Source of the DNA: Bradymonadia bacterium
GTDB taxonomy: Bacteria; Myxococcota_A; Bradymonadia; REDH01
Assembly: GCA_047629415.1 (NCBI GenBank)
Contig: JBLHWZ010000001.1
Span: 3,808-67,807, forward strand
Direction of reading: 5' to 3'
DNA: 64,000 nucleotides
Shown: piece after piece, positions 18,488-63,522 of the stretch
How positions within the stretch are numbered: position 1 is the stretch's first letter
Layout: every line of letters begins with the position of its first letter
Program-made: the position numbers and the translations under genes
Notes under the pieces: generated by a model
Databases searched by the model: none
The model's input: only the letters and a program-made list of their open reading frames with translations
What the model was told of the DNA's origin: nothing

Positions 18488-19654
18488 ATGAGCGCGCTTC
18501 TTCGCAACGCCATCACGGCGGCTGTCCTCCTCTCGATCACGTTGCTCCCCTCGATGGAGGGCTTCGCTCAAGGCCAGGAACCGGTCCACGGACTCACCGA
18601 CGAGCCGAGCGAGCCGGTTGAACTATCGGAGTTCAACCCAGACTTCCACGATGCGCCCTACTTTGAAACATGGGACTTCTGGATGTGGTCGGAGGATGGC
18701 ACCGTCATGCTCCTGCAGTTCCTCTCCTCCAGCTTCGGCTTCGGGATCGAGAAACAGGGCTCCGGCAGACTGATCGTCATCAGCCCCGAAGCAATAAATA
18801 TCGGCGACGACCCGGACGGCGTGAGCTTCGCTGACCGAGGATGGTCCTGGGACGATGGGTGGAGTTGGGCAGAGGTTCCGCTCGACATCACCTGGCGAGA
18901 CTCCTTCTTGCGCGGCGACGGCGAGACCTTCGAATTCTACCTCCGAGGCCGCAACCGCACGACCTACATGGAAGCGACGATGACCTTGGTCGACCCGCTC
19001 TATCGGCCCGGCGACGGACGACTTGAGTACGGATGGGACCGCCACTTCTTCTACGAGCAAATCGCGATCCCGCGCTTCACGTTCGAAGGTCGATTGAACC
19101 GCAAGGACCACCGCGACGACGAAGACAGCTGGGAAGACGTCAGCGGCGTCGGATACGGCGAACACACGCTGACCAACAACTTCCCCTTCGACATCGCCCA
19201 GCGCTTCATTGGGTTTCGGGCGCTCCGAGATGACGGTCTGACCATCATCGCTGACGGCCTCACGACCCCGCAGGAATTCGGCGGCCGAGGGATCAACTGG
19301 GGTGTCGTGAGCCTTGGAGGGCAGCCGCTCATCGAGTCCGCTGAGGTGACCATCGTTCCGCTCAACGAGACGCCATTCGTGGGCGCCGGAAACGAATACA
19401 GCGTGCCCGGCGGGCTGCAGATTCAAATGCAAGACGGCGCCAACTGGGCCCGCGTGAACGTCTACAACGGCGAACTGGTCAGCGCGACGAGCCCCTTCGC
19501 CCGCGTCGGCACCTTCCTACGCGCCATGCTCGGCGCAATAATGGCGCCCTTCGACTTCGAGTCGACCGCCGAATACGAAGCGTGGGTGCATGTTGATGGC
19601 GAAACCGCGTACGTCTCCGGCCGCGGCTGGATGACGACGAACTTCACCGAATGA
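18488..19654 (+). CDS. Secreted hypothetical protein
   Basis: The start is taken at ATG 18488 (MSALLRNAITAAVLLSITLLPSMEGFAQG signal peptide) inside track ORF 18383..19654. It is Trp/Asp-rich and lies in an operon-like arrangement with its neighbours. Confidence 0.6.
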   Translation: MSALLRNAITAAVLLSITLLPSMEGFAQGQEPVHGLTDEPSEPVELSEFNPDFHDAPYFETWDFWMWSEDGTVMLLQFLSSSFGFGIEKQGSGRLIVISPEAINIGDDPDGVSFADRGWSWDDGWSWAEVPLDITWRDSFLRGDGETFEFYLRGRNRTTYMEATMTLVDPLYRPGDGRLEYGWDRHFFYEQIAIPRFTFEGRLNRKDHRDDEDSWEDVSGVGYGEHTLTNNFPFDIAQRFIGFRALRDDGLTIIADGLTTPQEFGGRGINWGVVSLGGQPLIESAEVTIVPLNETPFVGAGNEYSVPGGLQIQMQDGANWARVNVYNGELVSATSPFARVGTFLRAMLGAIMAPFDFESTAEYEAWVHVDGETAYVSGRGWMTTNFTE

Positions 19655-20574
19655 TCCCGCGCACTGCTCACTTCGTCTGCTTGGGCCAGGACCTCTCCTG
19701 GGCCCACGCTCTCTCGATTCACTCGGCGCTCGCACGCGGCGGATTCGATCGTGCCCTGCTTCATCACAGTCAGGACCTCGCTCGCTCGGCGGGATACGCG
19801 GCGCTCGATGGGCTCGTAGGTTTTGAGGCGATTCGCCTTGAGGCGCTCGTCGCCGATGAGGCACCCGAAGCGCGCGCACTTCGTCAGGTCCTCACGGAGT
19901 TAGACCGGACGAGCGCGCGTGAGGACGTCGTGCGCGCGGCGTTGCTTTGGCAGCACGGCGGCGTGTTCTTGAGCTTAGATACGGTCGCCGTCAGTTCCTT
20001 CGACGATGTGTTCGCGAGGAACGAATTCTTCTGCGGGGAGTCCGCAACGACCCGGCCTTCTTCGAATTCGAAACGATCGTTCGTAGCGGCGGCGGTCCGG
20101 AAACGGCTCGGCCGGGCACTGGAACGAGCTCCGAGAGCGGCGTCACGAGCGGCGGAATTTTGGCCTAAGGTCGCAAGTCCAGCGGTGATGGGCGCTCCTG
20201 CGCAAGACCCCTTCGTCGGACGACTTCTAGCGGCGATGGCACACGCGCACGTCGAGGAACGCAGAAAGCCAGGAGCCCTCGGCTCGGACATCCTGGAGTC
20301 CGTGCTGAACAAGTCACGAACCGGAACTGTGCTCTATCCCAGCACCGTCTTCGATCCATGCGGGGGACCGCGAGCCTCGTGGTGGTTCCACGACCCTTCT
20401 CCCACCACGCTGAGCGCGCTGAAGAGCAGAGAAACACTGACTCTTCGTTGGCACCAGGAGATCGCTCCGAGGCAGATCGTCGCTATCATCGACGCGGAAG
20501 CACTCTCCAAGCTGAAGATCGGACACCTTTTTTCGGCCCTCGCGGCCGACCTAAAGGCCGCGCAGACTCCCTAG
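19651..20574 (+). CDS. Glycosyltransferase with a DXD-containing sugar-binding region (GT32/Gly_transf_sug-like)
   Basis: HFVCLG ... RAALLWQHGGVFLSLDTV resembles the GT32 region pattern (LLyxyGGiYlDtD). It has a 4-nt ATGA overlap with the upstream gene. Confidence 0.55.
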   Translation: MIPRTAHFVCLGQDLSWAHALSIHSALARGGFDRALLHHSQDLARSAGYAALDGLVGFEAIRLEALVADEAPEARALRQVLTELDRTSAREDVVRAALLWQHGGVFLSLDTVAVSSFDDVFARNEFFCGESATTRPSSNSKRSFVAAAVRKRLGRALERAPRAASRAAEFWPKVASPAVMGAPAQDPFVGRLLAAMAHAHVEERRKPGALGSDILESVLNKSRTGTVLYPSTVFDPCGGPRASWWFHDPSPTTLSALKSRETLTLRWHQEIAPRQIVAIIDAEALSKLKIGHLFSALAADLKAAQTP

Positions 20575-20649
20575 AGCAGGTGCTCTCCTTGGTATCGTAG
20601 CGAAGATTACATACACTGCCGGGGCGATCGTCCCGCCCCAAGGCCTGCC

Positions 20650-23286
20650 ATGCGTCCATTCCTATTCCTTCTTGCCGCTCTTCCATTTGTTGCCTGCGGC
20701 ACAGACATCCGCAACCCCAATCCAGTCGATGCAGACGAAGATGGCGTCGTGGACTCGACTCCCGATGACTGCGAGCGGTCGACGATCTTCCCCGATGCGG
20801 ACCTCGACGGGCTCGGTGCGGACGCTGGAGCGTTGCAAGCCTGTGAACAGTTCGACGGCTGGGTCGCGGTCGGCGGCGACTGCGATGATCTGGACGCGGC
20901 GATTGGTGCTGGATTCACCTACTACGCCGACGTGGATGGCGACGGAACAGGAGATCCAGCAACCCCGATGATTGCGTGTGTTGCTCCCGACGGATTCGTC
21001 GACAACGCCAACGATACCTACCCCGCCTGTGACGGCGAACTCGACGCTTGTGGTGTTTGCGATGGGCCAGGTGCCTCCACATGGTACGCGGACGTTGATG
21101 GAGATGGCGTCGGGGACGAGCGCAGCAGTGTGCTCGCGTGCGAGGCGCCCGACGGATTCGTCGCCGAGTTCGGCGATATACTCGTCGAGTGTGAAACCGA
21201 CGAATTCGATTGCGCAGGCGTCTGCGGCGGTTCGGCCGAAAACGATGAATGTGGTGTCTGCGAGGGTCCCGGAGCAGCGACTTGGTATGTGGACACCGAT
21301 GGCGATGGGATTGGCGTCGATGAGGGCGCAGTCTCTCAGTGCGACCGGCCCGAAGGCGCCGTCGACATCAGTGGTGATCCCGAGCCGGAGTGTGCGACCA
21401 ACGACACGGATACGTGCGGCCTCTGTGCCGGACCCGGCCTGATCATGTTCTTCGCCGACGCGGATGGCGACGGTCTTGGAGACCGCTTCAGCACGGCGGC
21501 TGGCTGCGAAGCGCCGATCGGCCACGTCGAAAACAACACCGATCCCGAGCCCCTCTGCGCGACCAACGACTCCGATGAGTGCGGAATCTGCGCAGGCCCT
21601 GGCCCCCTGACCGTCTACGCCGACGTAGATGGAGACGGAGTCGGCGATGAGCGCGCGGCCATCGCCGCCTGCGACCTCTCACCCGGGTTCACCCTTGAGT
21701 TTGGCGACCCCCAGCCGGAATGTGCGACCGACGACACTGACGAATGCGGAGTCTGCGCGGGTGGCAACGCCACGATGGACTGCGTCGGTGTTTGCGACGG
21801 AGCCGCAGTGCTTGATGGCTGCAGTGCTTGCACCGGCGGGACCTCGGGCAACGAGCCATCTACCCTCGACACCGATCGCGACGGCATCCCTGATGCTTGT
21901 GACCTCTGCGAGGGCGCAGAGTCTGATCGCTTCGTCATCCAGTGGAACGAGGTTTCCCCGTTCGCGGGTGCAGGCGGCCCCTACACGTTCCAGGTCACAC
22001 TCTACTCAAACGGTGAATTCCGATACCAGTACTGGGACCTCGGCACCTACGAGGCGAGCGCCACGGTGGGCTACCAGTCTCAGGCGGGTGAGGACTTCAC
22101 CGAGCTCGGGTTTGGCTCACGCTTCCCGACCGACCACCCAGTGGTGCACTTCCGAGGTCTCGACGATGGTGGGGTCGCGGTCGAATACACGCCGCCAATG
22201 TCGTGGCTGAACATCGCGGATTCGGGCACTCGTCACCCGATGCCGGACGACGGCACCGTGATCGTCGAAATCGGCTTCGACTTCGTGTTCTTCGGCCAGA
22301 CGTACACTGAGGCGATCGTGAATTCGAACGGGTTCATCTCGTTCACCGAGCCGATCCCTGGCTACTCGAACACCAACCTCCCGAATGTCGCTGCCGGCGC
22401 CCTGCTCTCTCCGCTCTGGGACGACCTCAACCCCACCCGCGGCGGCGATCTCTACACGATGTTTGTGCCGCGCGGCTGCGCGCTGGACTGCGCTGGCCAA
22501 GCCGGCGGCGTCGCGTTCACCGACACCTGCGGCGATTGCACCGGCGGTGACACCGGCATCGCCCCGAACTCCAACACCGATTGTTTCGGTGTCTGTCATG
22601 GAGAGGCCGAGCTGGACATCTGCGGGGTCTGCGTCGGCGGAACAACGGGCGTTGACCCGTCGGACCCGCTCGATTGCCCGATGGGCGTCGATCTCATGAT
22701 CGACCAGGACTACCTCGCATCGACAATGTCGATTGAGTACCTGGAAGTCCCCGAAGGCAGCTGCCTGATCGCCGAAGGCTGCGTCCGTGGCTCCGGTAAC
22801 CGGAAGCTACTCCGCTTCGGAACTCGAATTGGAAACATCGGCAACATGGACCTCTCGATCGGTGTTCCGCCGTCTCGTGGCGAGAGCACCGATATATGGA
22901 CCTGGGACAACTGTCACGGCCATCACCACTACGCTGACTACGCTGCCTACGACCTCTTCGACGTAGCCAACGATGAGCTGATCCCGATCGGCTCCAAGAC
23001 CGGCTTCTGCGTCATGGATATCGGCGTCTATGACACGAGCATCACCACCGAGTGCAACGGCTACAATTGCGGCAATCAGGGCATCTCCGCCGGCTGCCAA
23101 GACACCTACGGCCCAAGCCTTCAGTGCCAGTGGATCGACGTCACTGACATCATCGACGGCACCTACGATGTCATCGTCACGACCAACCCTGTCGGGAACA
23201 TCGAAGAGCTGAACTACGACAACAACTCGAACCAGGTTCGAGTTGAGATTACAGGCGACGACGTCGCCGTAGTCGACGCGGACTAA
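20650..23286 (+). CDS. Large lipoprotein: about 7 MopE-type putative metal-binding repeats, a central beta-rich (NIDO-like?) domain and a C-terminal lysyl oxidase catalytic domain
   Basis: Lipobox LAALPFVACG. A module of about 80 aa repeats: YADVDGDGxGD ... C.AP.GFV ... DECGVCxGPGA.TWY. The C-terminus matches lysyl oxidase closely: WTWDNCHGHHHYADYAAYDL (Cu-site His), KTGFCVMD (LTQ Lys) and QGISAGCQDTYGPSLQCQWIDVTDIIDGTYDVIVTTNP...NYDNNSNQVRVEI. Confidence 0.85.
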   Translation: MRPFLFLLAALPFVACGTDIRNPNPVDADEDGVVDSTPDDCERSTIFPDADLDGLGADAGALQACEQFDGWVAVGGDCDDLDAAIGAGFTYYADVDGDGTGDPATPMIACVAPDGFVDNANDTYPACDGELDACGVCDGPGASTWYADVDGDGVGDERSSVLACEAPDGFVAEFGDILVECETDEFDCAGVCGGSAENDECGVCEGPGAATWYVDTDGDGIGVDEGAVSQCDRPEGAVDISGDPEPECATNDTDTCGLCAGPGLIMFFADADGDGLGDRFSTAAGCEAPIGHVENNTDPEPLCATNDSDECGICAGPGPLTVYADVDGDGVGDERAAIAACDLSPGFTLEFGDPQPECATDDTDECGVCAGGNATMDCVGVCDGAAVLDGCSACTGGTSGNEPSTLDTDRDGIPDACDLCEGAESDRFVIQWNEVSPFAGAGGPYTFQVTLYSNGEFRYQYWDLGTYEASATVGYQSQAGEDFTELGFGSRFPTDHPVVHFRGLDDGGVAVEYTPPMSWLNIADSGTRHPMPDDGTVIVEIGFDFVFFGQTYTEAIVNSNGFISFTEPIPGYSNTNLPNVAAGALLSPLWDDLNPTRGGDLYTMFVPRGCALDCAGQAGGVAFTDTCGDCTGGDTGIAPNSNTDCFGVCHGEAELDICGVCVGGTTGVDPSDPLDCPMGVDLMIDQDYLASTMSIEYLEVPEGSCLIAEGCVRGSGNRKLLRFGTRIGNIGNMDLSIGVPPSRGESTDIWTWDNCHGHHHYADYAAYDLFDVANDELIPIGSKTGFCVMDIGVYDTSITTECNGYNCGNQGISAGCQDTYGPSLQCQWIDVTDIIDGTYDVIVTTNPVGNIEELNYDNNSNQVRVEITGDDVAVVDAD

Positions 23287-54004: not shown

Positions 54005-55837
54005 CTAGCCGCCGAAAGCAGCCAACGCCGCGATTCTGCCAAACGCGCTGCCCGGAACGTCGACCCGCACGATCGCCTCGTTGTGGTCGATCTCCCATTC
54101 GGCAGAGGAAAAAGCGCCGTGTAAGCCCGCCGCCATCAATGCGAACGTGTAGTGCTCGACCACGCTCGACCACTGTGACGAAAAGTCCTCGGCTTCCTCA
54201 CGGTTCTCGAAGACGAATCGTCCTTCGAATTTCGGCTGGCGACCTAACGAGAGCGCCGCCACCAGTTGCTGTGGAGCAGCTGTGCCAGAGCGCATGCCAT
54301 CGACTCGGAACGATCGGAAACCACTGAATGTCCACAACACCGCCGGACCGCGACGGCCGGTTCCGGCGAGGTCACCAGCCTCCAGCAAGCCGCGCATCCA
54401 AGGCGCATCGTCGCGGATTGGGGGCTCGCCATCCGCGCTGTTGCGTCGGCCGTTTCCGCGAGCATCACGCCACTCCTCAAGTGCTTCGTCACGGCGGGCT
54501 TCTGCCTGCGGCAACAGCTCCTCGCGTTGTGCGTCCCATGCGACGATCGCGCGATTTGTCTCCCGAGTTCGATCCCGTTGACGTTCGTTGCATCGAGTTC
54601 GGCCAACTCCGCGTCGGTCGTCACAACCGGGAGCGTCGTATTCTTCAGGGCGCTCGCCAACCAACCCCAACTCCACGAGGAGCTCATCGAGAGTCGGCGG
54701 CGGTCCCAGCACGGTCGAAATTGTGTTGGCCTCGTCCGCGAGGCCGCGAGCGCTCGGCGCCCCGCGCAGGAGATCATCCATCAGATCGGGTTGCGCGTAA
54801 ATCAGCAGGCGGTCCATCGGTACCAAGAAGCGACGCTGAAACGAGGTGCCCGCTCCCGGGGTTCCAAGGTACCGCCCATCACTCCGCTCCTCCCAGTTGA
54901 CGCCGCTCGGGAACCCGCGCCGGAGCTCCGACATCAGATATCCGGGGTCGAGGTGATGAACCGCTGCAACAAACGTGCGCTGGCTGTTGGAGATGTCCGT
55001 CGAGGCGAGCAACATCGTGTCGACATCGTCGATCAGGTTGATCCCCGTGTTCTCGGTCAAGTGCTGCGTATCGCCAAGCGCTCCGAAGATAGCTTCGACT
55101 TGATCGCGATACGGAGAGCGGCGGATTCGATCGTTCCTAATGATTGCCACCGAAGCGGCTCCCTCAGGGCCCCACATGCCAACGTCCGTCGCAACAGGGT
55201 TTACTGTGCCTTCTGGATACCGCTGCGTAGGGGGCAATGACGCCGGATCGACCGGTTCTTCCGGCGCTGGTGCTGCCGGCTCACTCGTTTCGGCTGGCTC
55301 ACTGGGTTCTACCGGCTCGCGACGCTCGCGAGGCCGCCGAAGTCGATCACCCGGACGGCGCGCCGGTTCGGTCCCAGCATCCGTCGGAGGCTCGTCGGTA
55401 CCGTCGTCTCCCACCTCGGGCTCTACCTGAGGCTCCACTCGCTCGGGCTCCACTTGAGGCTCGACGGGCTCGACGGGCTCGACGGGCTCGACGGGCTCGA
55501 CGGGCTCGACGGGTTCCGTCTCAAACTCAGTCATTTCCTGAGCGAGCGCCTCCATCTCTTCTTGAGTGAGTTCGGATTCGACGTACTCTTCTGGAGGCTC
55601 GTCGGATGGCTCCGCCCAACCGATCTGTGCCATCAGCGCGACACCAGCAGACTCCTGCACGTCGATGTCTACCGACACCTCAGGCGCTCTCACGGTGTAA
55701 GCGATCACCACCACCATCGAATGGAGAATCGCGGAAGCGACGAGGCACATCACCAGCCCCCGCTCGAGCAGGAGCCGGTTCTTCGAGATCGCCTCGACCT
55801 CGGTCGAGCCTGGTTCTTTTGTGCTTACTTCGTTCAT
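54005..55837 (-). CDS. Membrane-anchored hypothetical protein with a (PVE)n / Pro-Glu-rich repeat linker and a large C-terminal domain
   Basis: TM helix LVMCLVASAILHSMVVVIAYTV. The segment PVEPVEPVEPVEPVEPVEPQVEPERVEPQVEPEV is encoded by a 9-bp tandem repeat. The start at MNEVSTK is a guess. Confidence 0.55.
   Translation of the reverse strand: MNEVSTKEPGSTEVEAISKNRLLLERGLVMCLVASAILHSMVVVIAYTVRAPEVSVDIDVQESAGVALMAQIGWAEPSDEPPEEYVESELTQEEMEALAQEMTEFETEPVEPVEPVEPVEPVEPVEPQVEPERVEPQVEPEVGDDGTDEPPTDAGTEPARRPGDRLRRPRERREPVEPSEPAETSEPAAPAPEEPVDPASLPPTQRYPEGTVNPVATDVGMWGPEGAASVAIIRNDRIRRSPYRDQVEAIFGALGDTQHLTENTGINLIDDVDTMLLASTDISNSQRTFVAAVHHLDPGYLMSELRRGFPSGVNWEERSDGRYLGTPGAGTSFQRRFLVPMDRLLIYAQPDLMDDLLRGAPSARGLADEANTISTVLGPPPTLDELLVELGLVGERPEEYDAPGCDDRRGVGRTRCNERQRDRTRETNRAIVAWDAQREELLPQAEARRDEALEEWRDARGNGRRNSADGEPPIRDDAPWMRGLLEAGDLAGTGRRGPAVLWTFSGFRSFRVDGMRSGTAAPQQLVAALSLGRQPKFEGRFVFENREEAEDFSSQWSSVVEHYTFALMAAGLHGAFSSAEWEIDHNEAIVRVDVPGSAFGRIAALAAFGG
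55459..55513. repeat. 9-bp tandem repeat (GGGCTCGAC x6) inside the 54005..55837 CDS, encoding the PVE repeat on the minus strand
   Basis: Read directly; coordinates are within a few nt. Confidence 0.8.
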
Positions 55838-55970
55838 GCGTCGGTCGGGGACTGTTGCCTTGCACGCTGAGTCTTGCAACGCAACGCGAAACGCATCGGT
55901 CTGACGACCACGCCTCCAATCGATTCACCGACGCGAGCGACGCCACCCCTTAAGCGACGCCAAAAACCGA

Positions 55971-57911
55971 TTGCGCTCTTCGGCGGATGCACTAACCGAC
56001 TCGGTAATGCGAGGAAAAGTTCACGGAAATTTGCAGTCGCTTAAGTCGAGCCAGCGCAAAGCGTTGGAGAAGCTCGGCGAGAGGCGGCTTCGGCAGGATG
56101 TACCTGTGACTCCCGAGTTTGCGGGACAGATGTCACGGTTGTCCCGAGACCTTAACAAGTCGATCGGCGCGCTCGTTGATCGCCGTGGGAAAGTGACGGC
56201 TGTCGTGCTCGGCGACCACCGGCGACTCTTTCTGCCGGACCTTGGCCGCCAGCGCGCCGGCGGTTCACGGTTTCGAGGTCTGCGGCTGATACGCACACAC
56301 CTCGCCGGCGACCTCCTCTCGCACGACGACCTCACCGACCTGTCGAAACTCAATCTCGACATGGTGCTCTCGCTCCACGTCGAAAAGTCGGGGCTCCCGG
56401 GCAAGGTAGCCTGGGCGCACCTCATCCCAGACAACCCCGCTCGGGACATCTGGCGGACCGAAGAGCTCGACCACGTTAACCACGTGAACTTCTCGTTCGA
56501 CGAGTTCATCTCCGAGCTTGAAAACGAGTTCGAGGCCAAGCGTGACGTAGCCGTCGAGACGGCAAAAGACAGCGCGATCATCGTCTATGTGCGAACGCGC
56601 GACGACTGGATGCACAAGCAGAACCTCGCCGAGCTCCACGAGCTGTGCCGGACTGCCGAAGTCGCCGTCGCCGAGGAGTACGTTCAGTCCCGCATGGAGT
56701 TGGACCCGCGGACAGCGGTCGGCAGCGGTGCACTCGAGGACATCGAACTACGCTGCCTCCAGCTCGGCGCGGATATCCTCGTCTTTGGACAGGACCTGAC
56801 GCCCGCGCAGATGCGGACGATCACCAACCGAACGCAGCTTCGAGTCATCGATCGTACCCAGCTAATCCTCGATATCTTCGCGCAACGCGCGCAGTCGAGC
56901 GTCGGTAAACTGCAGGTGGAGCTCGCGCAGCTGAAGTACCAACTCCCGCGCCTGACTGGCAAAGGCACCGCGATGAGTCGCCTGGCTGGCGGCATCGGTG
57001 GACGCGGCCCCGGCGAGACCAAACTCGAGGTAGACCGGCGACGGGCCCGCGACCGCATCACCGCCCTGGAGCGCGGCATCAATAAGTTGAGCGCAACCCG
57101 CTCGCTGCGACGCAAGAATCGACGCGACAGTCGAATCCCAACCATCGCGATCGTTGGCTATACAAACGCCGGAAAGTCGACGCTCCTAAACACGCTGACG
57201 AATTCGACCGTGCTCAGCGAGGACAAGCTCTTTGCGACGCTGGATCCCACGACACGCCGGCTCCGATTCCCAGAAGAGCGTGAGGTGATTCTGACCGATA
57301 CGGTCGGCTTCATTCGCGACCTCCCTGAAGAGCTGAAAGTCTCGTTCCGAGCAACACTCGAGGAACTCGACGAGGCCAACCTTCTGCTCCACATCGTTGA
57401 CGGATCGGACGACGGTCACGACGAACACATCCGCTCTACCCACGCTCTCCTCGACGAGCTTGGCCACGACGAGACGCCACGCATGCTCGTCTTCAACAAG
57501 ACCGACAGGCTGAGCGCTGAGGAGAGGGCCAATCTAGAGACGGGCAACCCACACTCCGTGATGATCTCCGCGCTGACTCGAGCTGGCTCACGGAAGTTGC
57601 TCGAGGAAATCGACCGCTGGCTGATCGCATACGGACGGAGCGACGTCGTCCCTCACGGGTTCAGTGCCGACGAGAACGACGCCGACGAGAACGACGACGA
57701 CGAGAACGACGCCGACGAGAACGACGACGACGAGAACGACGACGACCAGAACGACGACGACGAGAACGACGACGACGAGAACGACGACGACCAGAACGAC
57801 GACGACGAGAACGACGCCGACGAGAACGACGACGACGAGAACGACGACGACGAGAACGGCAATCTTGCCGAAGGCGAGCCGGCGAGATCGAGCCGGGTGG
57901 ACCCACTTTAG
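55971..57911 (+). CDS. hflX: GTPase HflX with an N-terminal extension of about 200 aa and a C-terminal (DENDD)n polyacidic tail
   Basis: HflX N-domain (LTPAQMRTITNRTQLRVIDRTQLILDIFAQRA...GKLQVELAQLKYQLPRL). G-domain: G1 GYTNAGKST, TLDPTTRRL, DTVGF, NKTD. The tail is DENDADENDDDENDADENDDDENDDDQNDDDEN... Confidence 0.85.
   Translation: MRSSADALTDSVMRGKVHGNLQSLKSSQRKALEKLGERRLRQDVPVTPEFAGQMSRLSRDLNKSIGALVDRRGKVTAVVLGDHRRLFLPDLGRQRAGGSRFRGLRLIRTHLAGDLLSHDDLTDLSKLNLDMVLSLHVEKSGLPGKVAWAHLIPDNPARDIWRTEELDHVNHVNFSFDEFISELENEFEAKRDVAVETAKDSAIIVYVRTRDDWMHKQNLAELHELCRTAEVAVAEEYVQSRMELDPRTAVGSGALEDIELRCLQLGADILVFGQDLTPAQMRTITNRTQLRVIDRTQLILDIFAQRAQSSVGKLQVELAQLKYQLPRLTGKGTAMSRLAGGIGGRGPGETKLEVDRRRARDRITALERGINKLSATRSLRRKNRRDSRIPTIAIVGYTNAGKSTLLNTLTNSTVLSEDKLFATLDPTTRRLRFPEEREVILTDTVGFIRDLPEELKVSFRATLEELDEANLLLHIVDGSDDGHDEHIRSTHALLDELGHDETPRMLVFNKTDRLSAEERANLETGNPHSVMISALTRAGSRKLLEEIDRWLIAYGRSDVVPHGFSADENDADENDDDENDADENDDDENDDDQNDDDENDDDENDDDQNDDDENDADENDDDENDDDENGNLAEGEPARSSRVDPL
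57667..57858. repeat. 15/18-bp tandem codon repeat (GACGAGAACGACGMC, about 13 units) encoding the acidic tail of HflX
   Basis: Read directly from the sequence. Confidence 0.85.
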
Positions 57912-58267
57912 CCTAAGAGTTCGAGCCGGGGGACACGCCCCCAGGAACTCCCAAGCCGAGTCTTCCAGAGACCCTTCTTGTGAGCTACGGCGTCCTCGAC
58001 GTCACGGCCACCCAAGATGGCGAGCAGTTCGACATCGCGGACGGAGCGGAAGTTGAAGTCTCGATTCCGGCCCCCGCCAACCCGGAGCCCGAGACGTAGC
58101 TCGAGACCGTTCCATTGTGGTCCTTCGACGAAGAGAAGGGCATCTAGGTTCAGGAAGGAAGCACCACCTACAACGAGGACACCCACTCGTGGGAGGCATC
58201 CCTCCCGCACCTCTCGGCTTGGAACGTCGACGTTACCCTCACGGACCGCACGTGTGTTCGTGGTCAG

Positions 58268-59185
58268 GTGCTCGATGCCGACGGTAACGCAGTGGCAGCT
58301 GCCAGCGTACAGATGACCGCGGGCGATCTCTCAGCTGGCTACCGAGACACCACCCACACGGCAGAGGACGGATCGTTCTGCTTGGTTGCGAGGCAAGGCG
58401 CGACCGTGTCGTTCACGGCTACTACGCTGGACGACAGCGGCGAAGAGCTGACGGCTGAGCTCACCGGTGCCGTAGCCGGCAACGAGGAGTACTCGGGAGC
58501 CCTCAATCCTGTCATGTGCAGCGCCTCCAGCTGTGCGGACATCGGAACGATTCAGTTCGCCAACGACGGTCCGACGGTGGGCGAAGCGGTAAACTGCTCG
58601 GCGCAGTGCAAAGGTGGCGAGGGATACTGCGGCAGCGTGCCCTGCTACCCTAGCTACTGCACCGGCGGGGAGGGCGGCTGCACGTTCGGATTCGTTGACG
58701 CTTGCGGCGACGACCCGATTGCGTCGTGCGTGGGTACCGGAACGTATACGGAATTCGCCGTCTCTCTCTACCAGGATTCGTACACGGACTCGTTCTGCGG
58801 TTTCTGTGACCCTGTCGGATCGGAGTCGCCGGCGCTCTGCGTTCCGGTGACCTGCAACGAGGGCCAGATCGAAGTTGATGGAGCATGCGCCCAGACAGCA
58901 GCCAACGGCATGCAATTCACGTTGGAGTGGCTCCGAGAGGGGCATGATCTCGACATCAATCTCAAGACGCTCAGCGGCTCAATCGTAAACTACAACACGA
59001 ATTCGATTGCGGGTTGCACCCTCGACGTCGACGACACTGACGGCGGAAGCGAGATCGGTGCCGCTGTCGAGAACGTCAACTATCAAACCGCCGCCGATGG
59101 CTTCGAGAACGGTACCTACGAAGTGTGGGGCCACAACTACTCCGCAGCCAGCGGTGACGCTCCCTACACGCTCGGCGTGTACTGA
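58268..59185 (+). CDS. Secreted-type hypothetical protein fragment: carboxypeptidase-regulatory-like start, Cys-rich middle and a C-terminal domain of unknown family (copy 1); ends at an in-frame TGA
   Basis: GTG start with no signal peptide. VRGQVLDADGNAVAAASVQ...DGSF resembles a CarboxypepD_reg-like motif that is normally internal. Domain copy 1: MQFTLEWLREGHDLDINLKTLSG...CTLDVDDTDGGSEIGAAVENVNYQ. Confidence 0.5.
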   Translation: MLDADGNAVAAASVQMTAGDLSAGYRDTTHTAEDGSFCLVARQGATVSFTATTLDDSGEELTAELTGAVAGNEEYSGALNPVMCSASSCADIGTIQFANDGPTVGEAVNCSAQCKGGEGYCGSVPCYPSYCTGGEGGCTFGFVDACGDDPIASCVGTGTYTEFAVSLYQDSYTDSFCGFCDPVGSESPALCVPVTCNEGQIEVDGACAQTAANGMQFTLEWLREGHDLDINLKTLSGSIVNYNTNSIAGCTLDVDDTDGGSEIGAAVENVNYQTAADGFENGTYEVWGHNYSAASGDAPYTLGVY

Positions 59186-59779
59186 GACGAGCGACTAATC
59201 GACACCTTCGATGAGACCGCACCCTCGACCGAGCCATACCTCGGCAAGTGTCACTCTATCACCTTCACCGACGGCCGTTGCTCCGCCGTTGCGGATTGCG
59301 TACCCCCCGTTTTGGCCTGCGACCCGGAGTGCAGCGCCGGCCAGACCTCGGTTGAAGGCGTGTGTGTGCGGAACCCGGAAGAGGGAATGCGCTTTACGCT
59401 CGATTGGGCGACTGCTGCCGACCTCGACATGTACGTCACCACTCTCTCGGGTACCGACTTCAGCTACGTCACGACAACCGGCGCCGGATGCGCACTCGAC
59501 GTCGACGACACTGACGGTGGTACGGCCGAAGCTCCCGCTGTCGAGAACATCAATTGTGATGCGGATGTCGAAGGCTTCTTGCCCGAGACCTACACGTGGC
59601 AGGTAATCCCCGATAGCGGCGTAGGACGATTCTCGATCGAGCTCTTCTGCAACGAGGCAGCCGCTGGCGCTCAGACGGGAGAGATCACCGAGGTGGTCCG
59701 AGAAAGCGAGACGTGGACGGTTTGCTACCAGGGCGAAGCCGGCTGCGTCGAAGGCGCCTGCCCGGAGCAGGACGCCTGA
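59186..59779 (+). other. In-frame continuation after the TGA at 59183-59185, open with no stop through track ORF 59312..59779 (TTG start); contains paralogous domain copy 2
   Basis: Translated by eye: DERLIDTFDETAPSTEPYLGKCHSITFTDGRCSAVADCVPPVLACDPECSAGQTSVEGVCVRNPEEGMRFTLDWATAADLDMYVTTLSG...CALDVDDTDGGTAEAPAVENINCD... It is in the same frame as 58268..59185. Confidence 0.45.
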
Positions 59780-59997
59780 GCGCGGCCCAAACGACGCGCC
59801 CCAATCGCCGGCCCTCCCGTCTGGGAGGGCCGGCTGCGTTTTTGGCAGGACGAGCCTCATCCAGTCCACTGGAGAGCGGCTCCCGGAGGGCACGTTCTGA
59901 CAATCTCAGACGCGGCGATGGCTCACCGGGGCCGCCTCTGCCATTGACAATAGGGGCCGAAACTCCCAATTCGCCCTGCCTCGTTCCCGCTGTGCCC

Positions 59998-62900
59998 ATG
60001 TCGGTCGACCTTCAACAAGATCGCGCCCTGCGCGCTTCTCGCTACCCCATTGATGACCTCGTCAAAGCGGTCAAGAAGGAGGGATACAGCAGGATTGTCG
60101 GCGCTCGAGGCGGGTTCCTCCCGGTCGTCATCGCAGACCTCGTCAAACGACTCGGTCGGCCAACGATCGTCGTGGTGCCCGACGCGTCGGAGTCCCGCGT
60201 CTTCTACGACGCGCTCAGCACGGCGACGACACTAGGAGCGGAGCGTGTAAGCTTCCTGCCTCCCCCGGAAATCTCGCCCTACGCCGGCGTCTCGCCAGAC
60301 CGTCAAACCACGCTCGCCCGGGTCAATGCGCTTACCCGCATTCCGAAGCTTGGCGCCGGCGAGGTGATGGTGACCTCCGCGCTCGGTTGGGCGCGACGCT
60401 CCGCGCCGGCAGCCGCCCTCGAAGCCTGCTCGGTCTCGCTCTCGATCGACGATGAGGAGGTCGACACTGCCAAGCTCGCGGCGACCCTGGTCGCCGGTGG
60501 ATACAGTGGCGTCGGGCTCGTCGAAGACCCAGGCACGTTCAGCGTTCGCGGCGACATCGTCGACATCTTCCCCGCCGGAGCAGAGTTCCCTTATCGGGTG
60601 GAGCTCTACGGGGACATGGTCGAGTCGATCCGTCGCTTCGACCCCGAAACTCAGCGCGGAGTGGATGACGCAGACCGCGTCGACGCTGGGCCAGCCGTCG
60701 AAACGCTGCTCACCGCTGACTCCCTCGCCTCGCTGCGTGAGCGTCTGGGTGCCCTGGCCGAATCGATGAGTGTGCCCTCCAGCAGGGTGGGCGCGGTACT
60801 TCGCGATCTGCGGGCCGGCGTGCGATTCTTTGGTATCGAGTCGCTGCTTCCTGCGTTCCACGACTCCCTCCAGAGCGTTGGGGAACGACTGCCAGAGAAC
60901 GCGCTGGTCGTCGTTCTTGAGCCCGGCGAGTGTGAAGCACAGGTCTCGAAGTGGCTCGAAGCTCGCTATGACGAACACGAGCGCGAGGTCGGACACGGCG
61001 AGCTGCACTTCGCGATCGACGAGTGGATGATCCCGGAGGCCGATTTTGCGGCGAGCCTCAGCCCTGAGGGCGCGGTCCGTGTCGACGCATCGAGCCTATT
61101 GATGGCTGGTGAAGAGGGCATTCACTTCCCCTCGCTAGACAACGCCGACCTCGTCCGCGTTCGCAAAGAGCGGGCGGGAGGAGACGGCGCTGTGCACGCG
61201 ATCCTCGACGTGATGGAGGAGTGGCGCGAGCTCTATGGACGCATCGTGTTTACCTGCGGCAGCCGCGCCACCGTCGACCGCGTCGCCGCCCTGATTCGCA
61301 CCTATGGCGCGGAAGCCAAAGTGCGGAGCAAGATGCCCTCACTCGATACCCCCGTCTCGCCCCCCTGCGTGGAGTACGAGGTAGCGTTGGGCGATCTTCG
61401 AGACGGGTTTCGCTCTCCAGCGCTCGGCGTTGCGGTCATCTCAGATCGCGAGCTGCTAGGCCGAGCGGCAAGACGCTCCGGGCGAGCCGCAGCGCAGGAA
61501 GTCGCGACCCTCTCGTCATTCAAGGAGCTGCAGCCGAACGATCTGATCGTACACATCGACTTCGGAGTCGGCCGCTACCTCGGCCTTGAGCGAATGGACG
61601 TCGGCGGGGTCGGGAATGACTTCTTGGCGCTTCAATACGGCGGCGGCGACAAGCTCTACCTGCCTGTCTACCGATTGGACCGCGTGCAGAAGTACGCGGG
61701 TTCCAACTCCTTCCAGCGGCTAGACAAGCTAGGCGGGACCGCTTGGGAGCGCACCAAAGATAAGGTCAAGAGCCAGCTCGCAGACATCGCCCAGGAGTTG
61801 CTCCGGCTGCAGGCCGTCCGCGCCGCCGAGGAAGGCTTCCGGTATAGCGAGCCAGACGAGTTCTATGCCGAGTTCGAGGCGGCGTTCCCGTACGAGGAGA
61901 CCCCGCACCAGGCCAGCGCGATCACGGACGTGCTCAACGACATGATCTCGGACAAGCCGATGGACCGACTCCTCTGTGGAGACGTTGGTTTCGGCAAGAC
62001 CGAGGTCGCGATTCGGGCAGCGTACAAAGCCATTCTTGACGGCAAACAGGTCGCCGTTCTCGTACCGACGACAGTCCTCGCAGAGCAGCACGGCAAATCA
62101 TTCCAGGGTCGACTCCGTCACACGGCGGCCAACGTCGCAGTGCTCTCCCGATTCCGCAGCAGCGCGGAAGCAAAGAAGATCGTGGAGCAAGTAGCCGAGG
62201 GCAAGATCGATATCGTGATAGGCACGCACCGGCTGCTCTCAAAGGACATGAAGTTCAAGGACTTGGGAGTCCTCATCGTCGACGAGGAGCAACGCTTCGG
62301 CGTCACGCACAAGGAGAAGATCAAGAAGCTGAAGTCGAGCATCGACGTGCTCACGCTCTCCGCGACACCGATCCCACGGACGCTCGAGATGGCGATGCTC
62401 GGGATCCGCGATCTCTCTGTGATCCTGACGCCGCCACCTGGCCGGCTCGCAGTCCGAACCCACATCGCGAAGTTCCAGGACAACGTTCTGAAGGATGCGA
62501 TCGAACATGAACTCCAACGCGGCGGCCAAGCGTTCTTCGTGCACAACCGAGTCGAGACCATTCACGCGGTCGCGACGGAGTTAAGGCGGATCGCGCCGGA
62601 GGCCCGCATCGGCGTCGGGCACGCTCAGATGAAGGACTCCGAGCTTGAGAAGGTCATGCTCCAGTTCCTGAATCACGACATCGACATCCTCGTCTCGACG
62701 ACGATCATCGAGTCCGGCATCGACATCGCGTCGGCGAATACGATGTTCATCAACCACGCCGACAAGTTCGGACTTGGTCAGCTGCACCAGCTGCGCGGAC
62801 GGATCGGCCGATCCAACCAGCGCGCGTACTGCTACCTCCTGGTGAAGGAGCCCAAGCGGCTCTCGGTTGACGGCAAGCGCCGGCTTGAAGTGCTGCAGCA

Positions 62901-63522
62901 ACACACCGAACTCGGCTCCGGCATCCAGATCGCCCAACACGACCTCGATATGCGCGGCGCCGGCAACATCCTAGGGAGCGGCCAGTCCGGCCATATCGAA
63001 GCGGTCGGATTCGAGCTCTACTCCGAGCTGCTCAACGAGGCGGTGCAGGAGCTGCGTGGATTGGCAAAGGAAGAGACTGTTCAGCCGGACGTGAAGGTTC
63101 CAGTGGCGGCCTATCTGCCCGAGGAATACGTCAAGGACGTCAGCCAGCGGTTGCTCTTCTACAAGCGCTACTCGATGGCGCAGAACGAGGAGGAACTCTT
63201 CGACGTGCACGGCGAGCTTCAGGAGCGATATGGGCGCGCGCCTCAACCAGTTGATTCGCTCCGCGACATCGTTCGCCTGAAACTGGAAATGAAGGCGATC
63301 GGAGCCAAGAGACTCGAGGCCGGACCCAACGGAGTTGTCGTTGAGCTCACAGAGAACACCCCGTTGGACCCTGATAAAGTGATCGCGCTGATTCAGTCAT
63401 CCAAGGGCGAATACGAGTTCCGACCACAGATGACCTTGGTGCGCCGCTTGAATGGGGTGCAGGGGACCGATATCCTCGCCGCAGCGCTTCGGGTCTCCCG
63501 TGAGGTATCTTCTTGTGCGTAA
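59998..63522 (+). CDS. mfd: Transcription-repair coupling factor
   Basis: The start is set at ATG 59998 (MSVDLQQ) inside track ORF 59713..63522. UvrB-homology N-terminal region. SF2 helicase motifs: LLCGDVGFGKTEVA, DEEQRFGV, LSATPIPRT, QLHQLRGRIGRS. The C-terminal TRG/CarD-like region is present. 1174 aa. Confidence 0.95.
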   Translation: MSVDLQQDRALRASRYPIDDLVKAVKKEGYSRIVGARGGFLPVVIADLVKRLGRPTIVVVPDASESRVFYDALSTATTLGAERVSFLPPPEISPYAGVSPDRQTTLARVNALTRIPKLGAGEVMVTSALGWARRSAPAAALEACSVSLSIDDEEVDTAKLAATLVAGGYSGVGLVEDPGTFSVRGDIVDIFPAGAEFPYRVELYGDMVESIRRFDPETQRGVDDADRVDAGPAVETLLTADSLASLRERLGALAESMSVPSSRVGAVLRDLRAGVRFFGIESLLPAFHDSLQSVGERLPENALVVVLEPGECEAQVSKWLEARYDEHEREVGHGELHFAIDEWMIPEADFAASLSPEGAVRVDASSLLMAGEEGIHFPSLDNADLVRVRKERAGGDGAVHAILDVMEEWRELYGRIVFTCGSRATVDRVAALIRTYGAEAKVRSKMPSLDTPVSPPCVEYEVALGDLRDGFRSPALGVAVISDRELLGRAARRSGRAAAQEVATLSSFKELQPNDLIVHIDFGVGRYLGLERMDVGGVGNDFLALQYGGGDKLYLPVYRLDRVQKYAGSNSFQRLDKLGGTAWERTKDKVKSQLADIAQELLRLQAVRAAEEGFRYSEPDEFYAEFEAAFPYEETPHQASAITDVLNDMISDKPMDRLLCGDVGFGKTEVAIRAAYKAILDGKQVAVLVPTTVLAEQHGKSFQGRLRHTAANVAVLSRFRSSAEAKKIVEQVAEGKIDIVIGTHRLLSKDMKFKDLGVLIVDEEQRFGVTHKEKIKKLKSSIDVLTLSATPIPRTLEMAMLGIRDLSVILTPPPGRLAVRTHIAKFQDNVLKDAIEHELQRGGQAFFVHNRVETIHAVATELRRIAPEARIGVGHAQMKDSELEKVMLQFLNHDIDILVSTTIIESGIDIASANTMFINHADKFGLGQLHQLRGRIGRSNQRAYCYLLVKEPKRLSVDGKRRLEVLQQHTELGSGIQIAQHDLDMRGAGNILGSGQSGHIEAVGFELYSELLNEAVQELRGLAKEETVQPDVKVPVAAYLPEEYVKDVSQRLLFYKRYSMAQNEEELFDVHGELQERYGRAPQPVDSLRDIVRLKLEMKAIGAKRLEAGPNGVVVELTENTPLDPDKVIALIQSSKGEYEFRPQMTLVRRLNGVQGTDILAAALRVSREVSSCA

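What the first reader, a model, noticed from the sequence alone, without database searches (positions are those of the whole stretch)
57950..59779. Gene with two paralogous about 90-aa domains split by a single in-frame TGA, preceded by frame-broken upstream remnants
ORFs 58268..59185 and 59312..59779 are in the same frame and separated only by TGA 59183-59185, with 42 open codons between them. Both carry a related domain (M[QR]FTL[EDW]W ... LSG ... C[TA]LDVDDTDGG ... AVEN[VI]N) that I cannot place in a known family. Upstream (57950-58267), three short stretches in different frames each read like protein (VSYGVLDVTATQDGEQFDIADG... / PLWSFDEEKGI / VQEGSTTYNEDTHSWEASLPHLSAWNVDVTLTDRTCVRGQ...). 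There is no signal peptide even though the carboxypeptidase-regulatory-like motif is normally internal. This is either a decaying pseudogene, local sequencing errors, or a recoding event.
Basis: seen in the sequence. Interest (0 to 1): 0.55.

Follow-up and report, generated by a model that had tools for sequence, protein, structure and literature searches.

The report
Decaying surface-protein pseudogene between hflX and mfd
This stretch is the dead remnant of one secreted multi-domain protein gene, missing its front end and cut by four stop codons in a single reading frame; it is ordinary gene decay, not recoding.

Summary
The core observation holds. ORFs 58268..59185 and 59312..59779 share a frame, are separated only by TGA 59183-85, and carry paralogous modules (47% identity over 89 aa, E 2e-24). 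The "frame-broken upstream remnants" claim is wrong: everything from about 57881 to 59779 is one frame. That frame is interrupted by four in-frame stops (TAA 57914, TAG 58097, TAG 58145, TGA 59183) and no frameshift.

One tblastn alignment to intact 577-583 aa homologues runs across the two TAGs (E 2e-33). TAG 58145 replaces a Trp that is invariant in 168 of 168 homologues. The first ~190-225 residues of the family (signal peptide and first CarboxypepD_reg domain) are absent. In their place sits a 15-nt x 12.7 tandem repeat that extends HflX.

A second assembly reproduces all four stops. A sister Bradymonadia lineage (dS about 1.15) has, at the same hflX-mfd position, a differently broken copy with an internal deletion, a TGA and an 8-nt frameshift; that copy is seen in four assemblies. 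A more distant relative has nothing there.

The shared C-terminal module has dN/dS 0.19, so decay is recent and independent in the two lineages. All three stop codons terminate normal genes in the window, and there is no SECIS-like fold. Verdict: a recent pseudogene of low interest, currently annotated in NCBI as two hypothetical proteins.

The parts
57881..59779 (+). Pseudogene remnant. It is one reading frame, homologous to residues ~190-365 of intact 577-583 aa family members, followed by lineage-specific C-terminal modules. It lacks a start codon, a signal peptide and the first CarboxypepD_reg domain.
   Evidence: Three-frame translation. tblastn of P0001 residues 188-362 matches 57902-58438, E 2e-33, and nothing in the 64-kb window matches residues 1-187. 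Codon-position GC is uniform in every piece, GC3 0.71-0.80.
57914..57916 (+). In-frame TAA, the first of four stops, at a variable family position.
   Evidence: also present in the independent assembly L009.
58097..58099 (+). In-frame TAG in the variable linker before the PLWSFDEE motif.
   Evidence: present in L009.
58145..58147 (+). In-frame TAG replacing an invariant Trp (PLWSFDEEKGI-W-VQE). The inferred change is TGG to TAG.
   Evidence: The aligned column is W in 168 of 168 homologues; present in L009.
58010..58222 (+). FAM171-N-like segment of the family, spanning both TAG codons.
   Evidence: Pfam PF10577 E 0.0015, below gathering. The same family is precomputed on the homologues.
58256..58423 (+). 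CarboxypepD_reg-like domain (the family's second one). The GTG 'start' of the 305-aa ORF (58268) lies inside it.
   Evidence: Pfam PF13620 E 6.3e-6, 26.9 bits, below the 32.3 cut-off; alignment to homologues.
58829..59311 (+). Module A: a short Cys-knot plus a beta-sandwich (MQFTLEW...LDVDDTDGG...). It is cut by the TGA before its last strands.
   Evidence: By the AF2 model of paralogue A', the TGA-equivalent residue (C112) is followed by three more confident strands.
59183..59185 (+). In-frame TGA at a variable position inside module A. The aligned residue is Cys/TGC in paralogue A', Trp/TGG in the sister lineage, and V, R or T in distant homologues.
   Evidence: present in L009.
59315..59779 (+). 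Module A', paralogue of A, ending at the gene's own TGA stop. The TTG 'start' at 59312 lies inside the Cys-knot.
   Evidence: BLASTP A vs A' E 2e-24. AF2 model pLDDT 84, pTM 0.80, all-beta. Orthologous piece in L010 is 63-68% aa identical, dN/dS 0.19.
59807..59844 (+). Intrinsic terminator: a 12-bp GC-rich stem plus a T run, downstream of the remnant. None lies between hflX and the remnant.
57668..57858 (+). Tandem repeat, 15 nt x 12.7 copies, exactly at the junction between the conserved end of hflX and the 5' edge of the remnant. It is read as a (DENDD)n tail of HflX, whose ORF then ends at TAG 57909-11 inside remnant sequence.
   Evidence: Flank homology with L010 stops at 57656. The HflX proteins of L010 and L004 lack the tail.
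55971..57911 (+). hflX (GTPase), upstream neighbour.
   Evidence: Pfam GTP-bdg_N/M and MMR_HSR1 on the L010 orthologue.
59998..63522 (+). mfd (transcription-repair coupling factor), downstream neighbour.

Best explanation
The region is a recently inactivated pseudogene of a single gene. That gene encoded a secreted or lipoprotein-type multi-domain protein with this layout: signal peptide, CarboxypepD_reg, FAM171-N-like, CarboxypepD_reg, a Cys-rich stretch, then two Cys-knot/beta-sandwich modules.

Shown here: in this Bradymonadia MAG the gene has no 5' third. It therefore lacks a promoter-proximal start, a signal peptide and the first domain. The point where homology begins is occupied by a 15-nt tandem repeat that now forms an acidic tail on HflX. 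The remaining 1.9 kb keeps one frame but carries four nonsense codons.

Inferred: no functional product is made, and the region is at most co-transcribed passively behind hflX up to the retained terminator.

The same ancestral gene sat between hflX and mfd in a sister lineage. There it is decaying by different lesions: an internal deletion, a TGA and an 8-nt frameshift. The two ORFs annotated in NCBI as hypothetical proteins are gene-caller artefacts of the largest stop-free pieces.
For: 1. One frame with four in-frame stops and no frameshift.
2. A single tblastn HSP to intact homologues crosses the TAGs, E 2e-33. Residues 1-187 of the family are absent from the whole window.
3. TAG 58145 sits at a Trp that is invariant in 168 of 168 homologues.
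4. The putative starts, GTG 58268 and TTG 59312, fall inside a CarboxypepD_reg domain and a Cys-knot respectively.
5. The TGA falls inside the beta-sandwich, with three confident strands still to come in the paralogue's model.
6. The independent Logan contig L009 is identical over 5,151 nt apart from one mismatch elsewhere (at 60591), and it carries all four stops.
7. The syntenic locus in a relative with ~80% nt identity (L010) carries a differently broken copy. That copy is reproduced in L011, L012 and L013 at 99.7-99.8% identity.
8. In the more distant L004, hflX and mfd are 73 nt apart with no gene between them.
9. An exhaustive search of 1.84 billion representatives finds no intact orthologue. 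It finds only the window's own fragments and the L010 fragment.
10. Standard genetic code: among 34 long ORFs, 17 end in TAG, 12 in TGA and 5 in TAA.
11. Timing is consistent with recent decay. For module A', dS is 1.15 and dN/dS 0.19, against 0.04 for hflX and mfd. Four stops imply about 0.03-0.10 neutral substitutions per site. Coding-type GC3 is still intact.
Against: - Four of four point lesions are nonsense and none is a frameshift. That is somewhat unusual for neutral decay, where indels are normally common.
- dN/dS of 0.19 for module A' shows that it was under purifying selection for most of the divergence, so its present non-function is inferred, not measured.
- The 155-aa A' ORF is intact in the window.
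- Whether L009 derives from the same reads as the window is unknown.
- The 5' truncation abuts a tandem repeat where one assembly broke (L009 starts at 57829). Some assembly collapse at that point cannot be fully excluded.
Confidence: 0.88

Rival explanations
1. The pieces are genuine separate small genes, as annotated in NCBI (ACJAYU_000058 of 305 aa and ACJAYU_000059 of 155 aa). On this reading, at least the C-terminal module A' is still expressed as a stand-alone protein.
For: Both ORFs are called by gene finders and deposited as proteins. Module A' shows dN/dS 0.19 against the sister lineage. An ATG at 59387 opens the beta-sandwich (MRFTLDW) in both lineages.
Against: - The starts lie inside domains, and the purine run before ATG 59387 is simply the conserved codons for EEG.
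- There is no signal peptide for Cys-rich modules that, in homologues, sit in proteins with a signal peptide or lipobox.
- The 305-aa ORF ends in mid-fold.
- In the sister lineage the same module is split by an 8-nt frameshift just after MRFILDWATAADL, in three independent assemblies.
- There is no promoter-like site or terminator between the pieces.
Confidence: 0.06
2. The stops are sequencing or assembly errors in an intact gene.
For: The source is a MAG. The 5' edge of the remnant abuts a 191-nt tandem repeat at which another assembly broke.
Against: - All four stops are base substitutions, not the indels typical of read errors.
- They are identical in the separately assembled Logan contig L009.
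- The rest of the 64-kb window is made of long uninterrupted ORFs.
- The sister lineage is also broken at the same locus, in four assemblies.
- Base errors cannot explain the missing ~200 N-terminal residues.
Confidence: 0.04
3. Programmed recoding produces a continuous protein: selenocysteine at TGA 59183, pyrrolysine or readthrough at the TAGs.
For: The TGA aligns with Cys (TGC) in the paralogous module A', and counting it as Cys would give module A the same four-Cys tail pattern. All lesions preserve the frame.
Against: - The aligned residue is Trp in the sister lineage and V, R or T in distant homologues, so it is not a conserved Cys.
- The 80 nt after the TGA fold no better than shuffles (z -1.65, 11 of 200 shuffles as good).
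- No tRNA gene and no Rfam family is found in the window.
- TAG is the commonest terminator of long ORFs here, including hflX, and TAA is also in frame.
- One TAG replaces an invariant Trp.
- Even if read through, the product would lack a start codon and a signal peptide.
Confidence: 0.02

Closest known systems
Uncharacterised bacterial CarboxypepD_reg / FAM171-N-like secreted proteins (e.g. P0001 of 577 aa, P0002 of 583 aa, and NCBI MAG Myxococcota 'hypothetical protein ACI9MR_001867' = P0003)
   Same: 38-47% identity over ~150-240 residues in the closest members. This covers the LESFGVLDVT...PLWSFDEExGxW...LPHLSxWN segment and the following CarboxypepD_reg domain.
   Different: The window copy lacks the signal peptide or lipobox, the acidic linker and the first CarboxypepD_reg domain. 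It carries four in-frame stops. Its C-terminal half (Cys-rich stretch plus two Cys-knot/beta-sandwich modules) differs from that of P0001 and P0002.
Ordinary bacterial pseudogenes (nonsense- and deletion-inactivated genes undergoing neutral decay)
   Same: It shows homology to intact genes across the stops, loss of the 5' end, lineage-specific lesions at a syntenic locus, and complete absence in a more distant relative.
   Different: All point lesions here are nonsense and none is a frameshift. The shared part still shows dN/dS 0.19, so inactivation is recent.
TerD-type and PPC-type calcium-binding beta-sandwich domains (PDB 2qng SAV2460; TerD 3ibz and 2kxt; C-terminal domains of the KP-43 and Tk-SP subtilases, 1wmd and 3afg)
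   Same: The AF2 model of module A' is an all-beta sandwich. The best Foldseek matches are 2qng, 3ibz and 2kxt (TM 0.49-0.56, E 4e-3 to 2e-2). A profile of the module weakly hits subtilase C-terminal domains (E 1.6e-3). It has an Asp-rich loop (LDVDDTDGG).
   Different: No match reaches significance (no Foldseek match at E <= 0.001). No Pfam family is matched, apart from a weak PPC hit in one homologue. The preceding Cys-knot and C-terminal Cys pairs are not part of TerD or PPC. This is a resemblance only.
Bacterial selenoprotein genes (in-frame TGA plus a downstream SECIS hairpin)
   Same: An in-frame TGA aligns with Cys in a paralogous domain.
   Different: There is no SECIS-like structure and the Cys is not conserved. 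Three further in-frame TAA/TAG stops exist, and there is no start codon.

Membership tests
CarboxypepD_reg / FAM171-N-like secreted protein family (homologues P0001-P0032, P0036-P0180) | Significant sequence homology over the FAM171-N-like segment and the second CarboxypepD_reg domain | tested here: met
   tblastn E 2e-33 to P0001. phmmer E 1e-30 to 1e-12 to more than 140 proteins. Pfam PF13620 E 6e-6 and PF10577 E 1.5e-3, both below gathering.
CarboxypepD_reg / FAM171-N-like secreted protein family (homologues P0001-P0032, P0036-P0180) | N-terminal signal peptide or lipobox and the first CarboxypepD_reg domain | tested here: not met
   Homology starts at family residue ~190. Nothing in the window matches residues 1-187, and hflX plus a tandem repeat lies immediately upstream.
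CarboxypepD_reg / FAM171-N-like secreted protein family (homologues P0001-P0032, P0036-P0180) | Uninterrupted ORF with the invariant Trp of PLWSFDEExGxW | tested here: not met
   W in 168 of 168 homologues; TAG in the window.
Pseudogene (operational definition) | Homology to intact genes continues across disabling lesions | tested here: met
   N-terminal part; across the TGA, against paralogue A' and distant homologues.
Pseudogene (operational definition) | Lesions are real, i.e. reproduced independently of one assembly | tested here: inconclusive
   L009 (Logan assembly of SRR28417388) carries all four stops. Whether it comes from the same reads as the window is unknown, and no read pile-up is available.
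Pseudogene (operational definition) | Orthologous locus in relatives shows an intact gene, independent decay, or absence | tested here: met
   The sister lineage L010-L013 has different lesions. L004 has no gene there. No intact orthologue was found.
Pseudogene (operational definition) | Relaxed selection (dN/dS approaching 1) | tested here: not met
   dN/dS is 0.19 for module A', against 0.04 for hflX and mfd. It is elevated but far from 1, which is compatible only with recent inactivation.
Selenoprotein gene | TGA aligned with a conserved Cys in homologues | tested here: not met
   Cys in paralogue A' only. Trp in the sister lineage; V, R or T in P0082, P0175 and P0149.
Selenoprotein gene | SECIS hairpin directly downstream of the TGA | tested here: not met
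   MFE -19.3 kcal/mol, z -1.65, 11 of 200 shuffles as good; no Rfam hit.
Selenoprotein gene | selA, selB, selC and selD present in the genome | not testable with these tools
   Only 64 kb is available; no tRNA gene in the window.
Pyrrolysine or TAG-reassigned decoding | TAG avoided as a terminator, or used as a sense codon in many genes | tested here: not met
   TAG terminates 17 of 34 long ORFs, including hflX. No other gene in the window is interrupted.
TerD / PPC-like beta-sandwich domain (modules A and A') | Significant fold or profile match | tested here: inconclusive

The most novel reading that the evidence does not exclude
The same surface-protein gene was lost recently and independently in two Bradymonadia lineages. 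This would reflect selection rather than drift, for example shedding an exposed adhesin or receptor-like protein after a lifestyle shift; the sister lineage's contigs come from several very large assemblies that may be host-derived. Alternatively, the intact C-terminal beta-sandwich ORF (59387-59779) may be retained as a small cytoplasmic protein. Neither reading is excluded by the data. dN/dS of 0.19 shows the module was constrained until shortly before both inactivations.
Probability: 0.12. Interest if true: 0.35.

Novelty: new member of a known kind. Interest (0 to 1): 0.12.

Why it matters
The main value is for annotation. Two NCBI 'hypothetical proteins' (MFT6395316.1 and MFT6395317.1), plus a 39-aa ORF call present in the protein collection (P0132, called on the Logan contig L009), are fragments of one dead gene and should be merged and flagged as a pseudogene.

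The case also shows that same-frame ORFs separated by a TGA need not mean recoding. It documents a poorly described family of secreted proteins (CarboxypepD_reg plus FAM171-N-like) with a recurrent, unclassified Cys-knot/beta-sandwich module. It also gives an example of parallel recent decay at a conserved hflX-mfd junction. None of this would surprise a specialist.

Tried and rejected
- **Alternative genetic code.** Rejected: all three stop codons terminate long ORFs in the window, and other same-frame adjacent ORF pairs (e.g. 19597-20574 with 20575-23286) are separate genes with their own signal peptide.
- **Selenocysteine.** Rejected: no SECIS-like fold, no conserved Cys, no tRNA or Rfam hit.
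- **Search for an intact orthologue.**
  - A genome-contig scan with the Mfd N-terminus gave a best hit of 55% identity with no gene at the locus.
  - Two metagenome-contig scans, with the Mfd N-terminus and with the module A' alignment, found nothing.
  - The exhaustive representative search found only fragments.
  - A word-index search with module A gave one weak hit.
- **Contexts of the best homologues, P0001 and P0002.** These are unrelated loci, not orthologues.
- **A 12-nt insertion as the origin of TAG 58097.** Dropped: the linker length is within the family range.
- **Literature search** for the assembly and run accessions: nothing.

Full report
**1. What is in the sequence**

They are separated only by TGA 59183-85 and 42 open codons.

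The three "upstream remnants" are not in different frames, however. They lie in the same frame as the two ORFs and are separated by TAG 58097-99 and TAG 58145-47. Homology to relatives continues a little further upstream, across a fourth in-frame stop at TAA 57914-16.

So about 57881-59779 is one reading frame with four nonsense codons and no frameshift. GC at the three codon positions is uniform and coding-like in every piece. This includes the 42 codons between the TGA and the next ORF "start" (GC3 0.71-0.80, against 0.76-0.78 in hflX and mfd).

The two C-terminal modules are true paralogues: 47% identity over 89 aa, E 2e-24.

**2. What gene it was**

A search with the conceptual translation found uncharacterised proteins of 490-870 aa. 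They have a signal peptide or lipobox, a first CarboxypepD_reg domain, a FAM171-N-like segment and a second CarboxypepD_reg domain.

- tblastn of P0001 gives one HSP, residues 188-362 against window 57902-58438, E 2e-33. It runs straight across both TAG codons.
- Nothing in the 64-kb window matches residues 1-187 of the family.
- In an alignment of 168 homologues, TAG 58145 falls on a column that is Trp in all 168 (motif PLWSFDEExGxW). It is therefore most simply a TGG-to-TAG change. The other two N-terminal stops fall at variable positions.
- The GTG "start" of the 305-aa ORF lies inside the second CarboxypepD_reg domain (Pfam E 6e-6).
- The TTG "start" of the 155-aa ORF lies inside a Cys-knot that precedes the second beta-sandwich.

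**3. The repeated module**

The module consists of a short Cys-knot (C..C..G..C..GVCV) followed by about 110 residues (LRFTLxW..DLDxxV....LDxDDTxGG..ENV..GxYxYxV). It recurs in other secreted proteins (P0082, P0175, P0149 with two copies, P0004-6).

- It matches no Pfam or NCBIfam model.
- An AlphaFold2 model of module A' is a confident all-beta sandwich (pLDDT 84, pTM 0.80).
- The best PDB fold matches are SAV2460 and TerD (TM about 0.5-0.56, E 4e-3 and above). A profile weakly hits the C-terminal jelly-roll domains of the KP-43 and Tk-SP subtilases.
- These are resemblances only, not membership.

The residue equivalent to the TGA is C112 of the A' model, at the end of one strand, with three more confident strands after it. 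TGA 59183 therefore truncates a fold rather than separating two domains. The aligned residue is Cys in A', Trp in the sister lineage, and V, R or T in distant homologues, so it is not a conserved Cys.

**4. Context and relatives**

The window comes from a MAG named Bradymonadia bacterium. NCBI annotates the two ORFs as hypothetical proteins ACJAYU_000058 and ACJAYU_000059. The upstream neighbour is hflX and the downstream neighbour is mfd.

- **Independent assembly.** Logan contig L009 (window 57829-62979) differs at one base, 60591, and has all four stops.
- **Distant relative.** The nearest genome in the GTDB set, L004 (a Myxococcales MAG with 55% Mfd identity), has hflX and mfd only 73 nt apart.
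- **Sister lineage.** L010 (GCA_024449875.1) aligns to the window flanks at about 80% nt identity, exactly up to 57656 and from 59912 onward.
  - Between hflX and mfd it has 1,146 nt instead of 2,255 nt.
  - This stretch holds a piece that hits the family's first CarboxypepD_reg domain across an in-frame TGA.
  - That piece is joined to module A', which is split by an 8-nt deletion frameshift.
  - The same broken arrangement occurs at 99.7-99.8% identity in three more assemblies, L011-L013.
- **No intact orthologue.** None was found in 1.84 billion representative proteins or in JGI metagenomes.

**5. Timing**

Nei-Gojobori estimates between the window and L010 are as follows.

| Region | dS | dN | dN/dS |
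|---|---|---|---|
| mfd | 1.22 | 0.049 | 0.04 |
| hflX | 1.14 | 0.047 | 0.04 |
| module A' | 1.15 | 0.22 | 0.19 |

Had the gene died in the common ancestor, dN would approach dS. The gene was therefore constrained for most of the divergence and was inactivated recently and separately in each lineage.

Only 2-7% of possible substitutions in this sequence create a stop. Four stops thus imply roughly 0.03-0.10 neutral substitutions per site, about 5-18% of the per-lineage dS. That is the same order as the dN/dS excess.

The absence of any frameshift among the lesions is mildly unusual and is noted as unexplained.

**6. The 5' edge**

Homology to the family begins immediately after a 15-nt x 12.7-copy tandem repeat at 57668-57858. 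Flank homology to L010 ends at 57656, just before that repeat.

The repeat is read in the hflX frame as a (DENDD)n tail. HflX then runs 17 more codons into out-of-frame remnant sequence before TAG 57909-11. The HflX proteins of L010 and L004 have no such tail.

No terminator or promoter-like site lies between hflX and the remnant. A strong terminator follows the remnant at 59807-59844.

The inference is that a deletion or rearrangement removed the gene's 5' third together with the original hflX 3' end. Because L009 broke inside the repeat, a partial assembly collapse there cannot be excluded.

**7. Rivals**

- **Recoding.** All three stop codons terminate long ORFs here: 17 TAG, 12 TGA and 5 TAA among 34. 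The sequence after the TGA folds no better than shuffles (z -1.65). No tRNA gene or Rfam family is present. Any read-through product would still lack a start codon and a signal peptide.
- **Sequencing error.** The lesions are substitutions, reproduced in L009, in a window otherwise made of long intact ORFs.
- **Separate functional small genes.** The starts are mid-domain, there is no export signal for Cys-rich modules, one ORF ends in mid-fold, and the sister lineage has a frameshift in the same module. Some weight is kept for this rival because A' is intact here and was recently constrained.

**8. Verdict**

This is a real feature with an ordinary explanation: a recently inactivated, 5'-truncated pseudogene of an uncharacterised secreted-protein family. 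The same gene is decaying in parallel in a sister lineage. Interest is low. The practical outcome is a corrected annotation and a description of an unclassified beta-sandwich module.

Noticed in passing
window 57668-57858 (hflX 3' end): A 15-nt tandem repeat (CGACGAGAACGACGA x 12.7, 94% matches) gives HflX an acidic (DENDD)n C-terminal tail. With the 17 following codons, this extends HflX by about 85 residues. The tail is absent from the orthologues in L010 and L004. The Logan assembly L009 breaks inside the repeat.
   Followed up: partly
L010 7421-8566; L011, L012, L013: The sister-lineage contigs come from three NCBI assemblies whose contig numbering runs into the millions (GCA_024449875.1, GCA_024449815.1, GCA_024449685.1), plus a Logan run (ERR11547895). 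This suggests a bacterium carried in large, possibly host-derived, assemblies. The organism or host was not identified, and a literature search found nothing.
   Followed up: partly
window 20575-23286 (+): A 903-aa predicted lipoprotein (MRPFLFLLAALPFVACG...). It has many repeats of a Cys-containing 'YADVDGDGxGD...C..PDGFV...C...D.CG.C.GPG' unit and a large C-terminal domain. It follows, in the same frame and directly after a TAG, a separate 325-aa ORF.
   Followed up: no
window 54005-55924 (-): The gene divergent from hflX encodes a 639-aa protein with a (VEP)n / PEVEP-type acidic proline-rich repeat. It is syntenic with a 682-aa orthologue in L004 and a 610-aa one in L010, and has no Pfam domain on record.
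   Followed up: no
window 60591: This is the single difference between the window and Logan contig L009 over 5,151 nt (T in the window, C in L009). It lies inside mfd and is probably a population polymorphism.
   Followed up: no
window 58500-58830: A Cys-rich stretch (CSASSC...CSAQCKGGEGYCGSVPCYPSYCTGGEGGCTFGFVDACGDDPIASC...FCGFCDP...) lies between the CarboxypepD_reg domain and module A. It has no family match and is absent from the closest homologues, P0001 and P0002.
   Followed up: no
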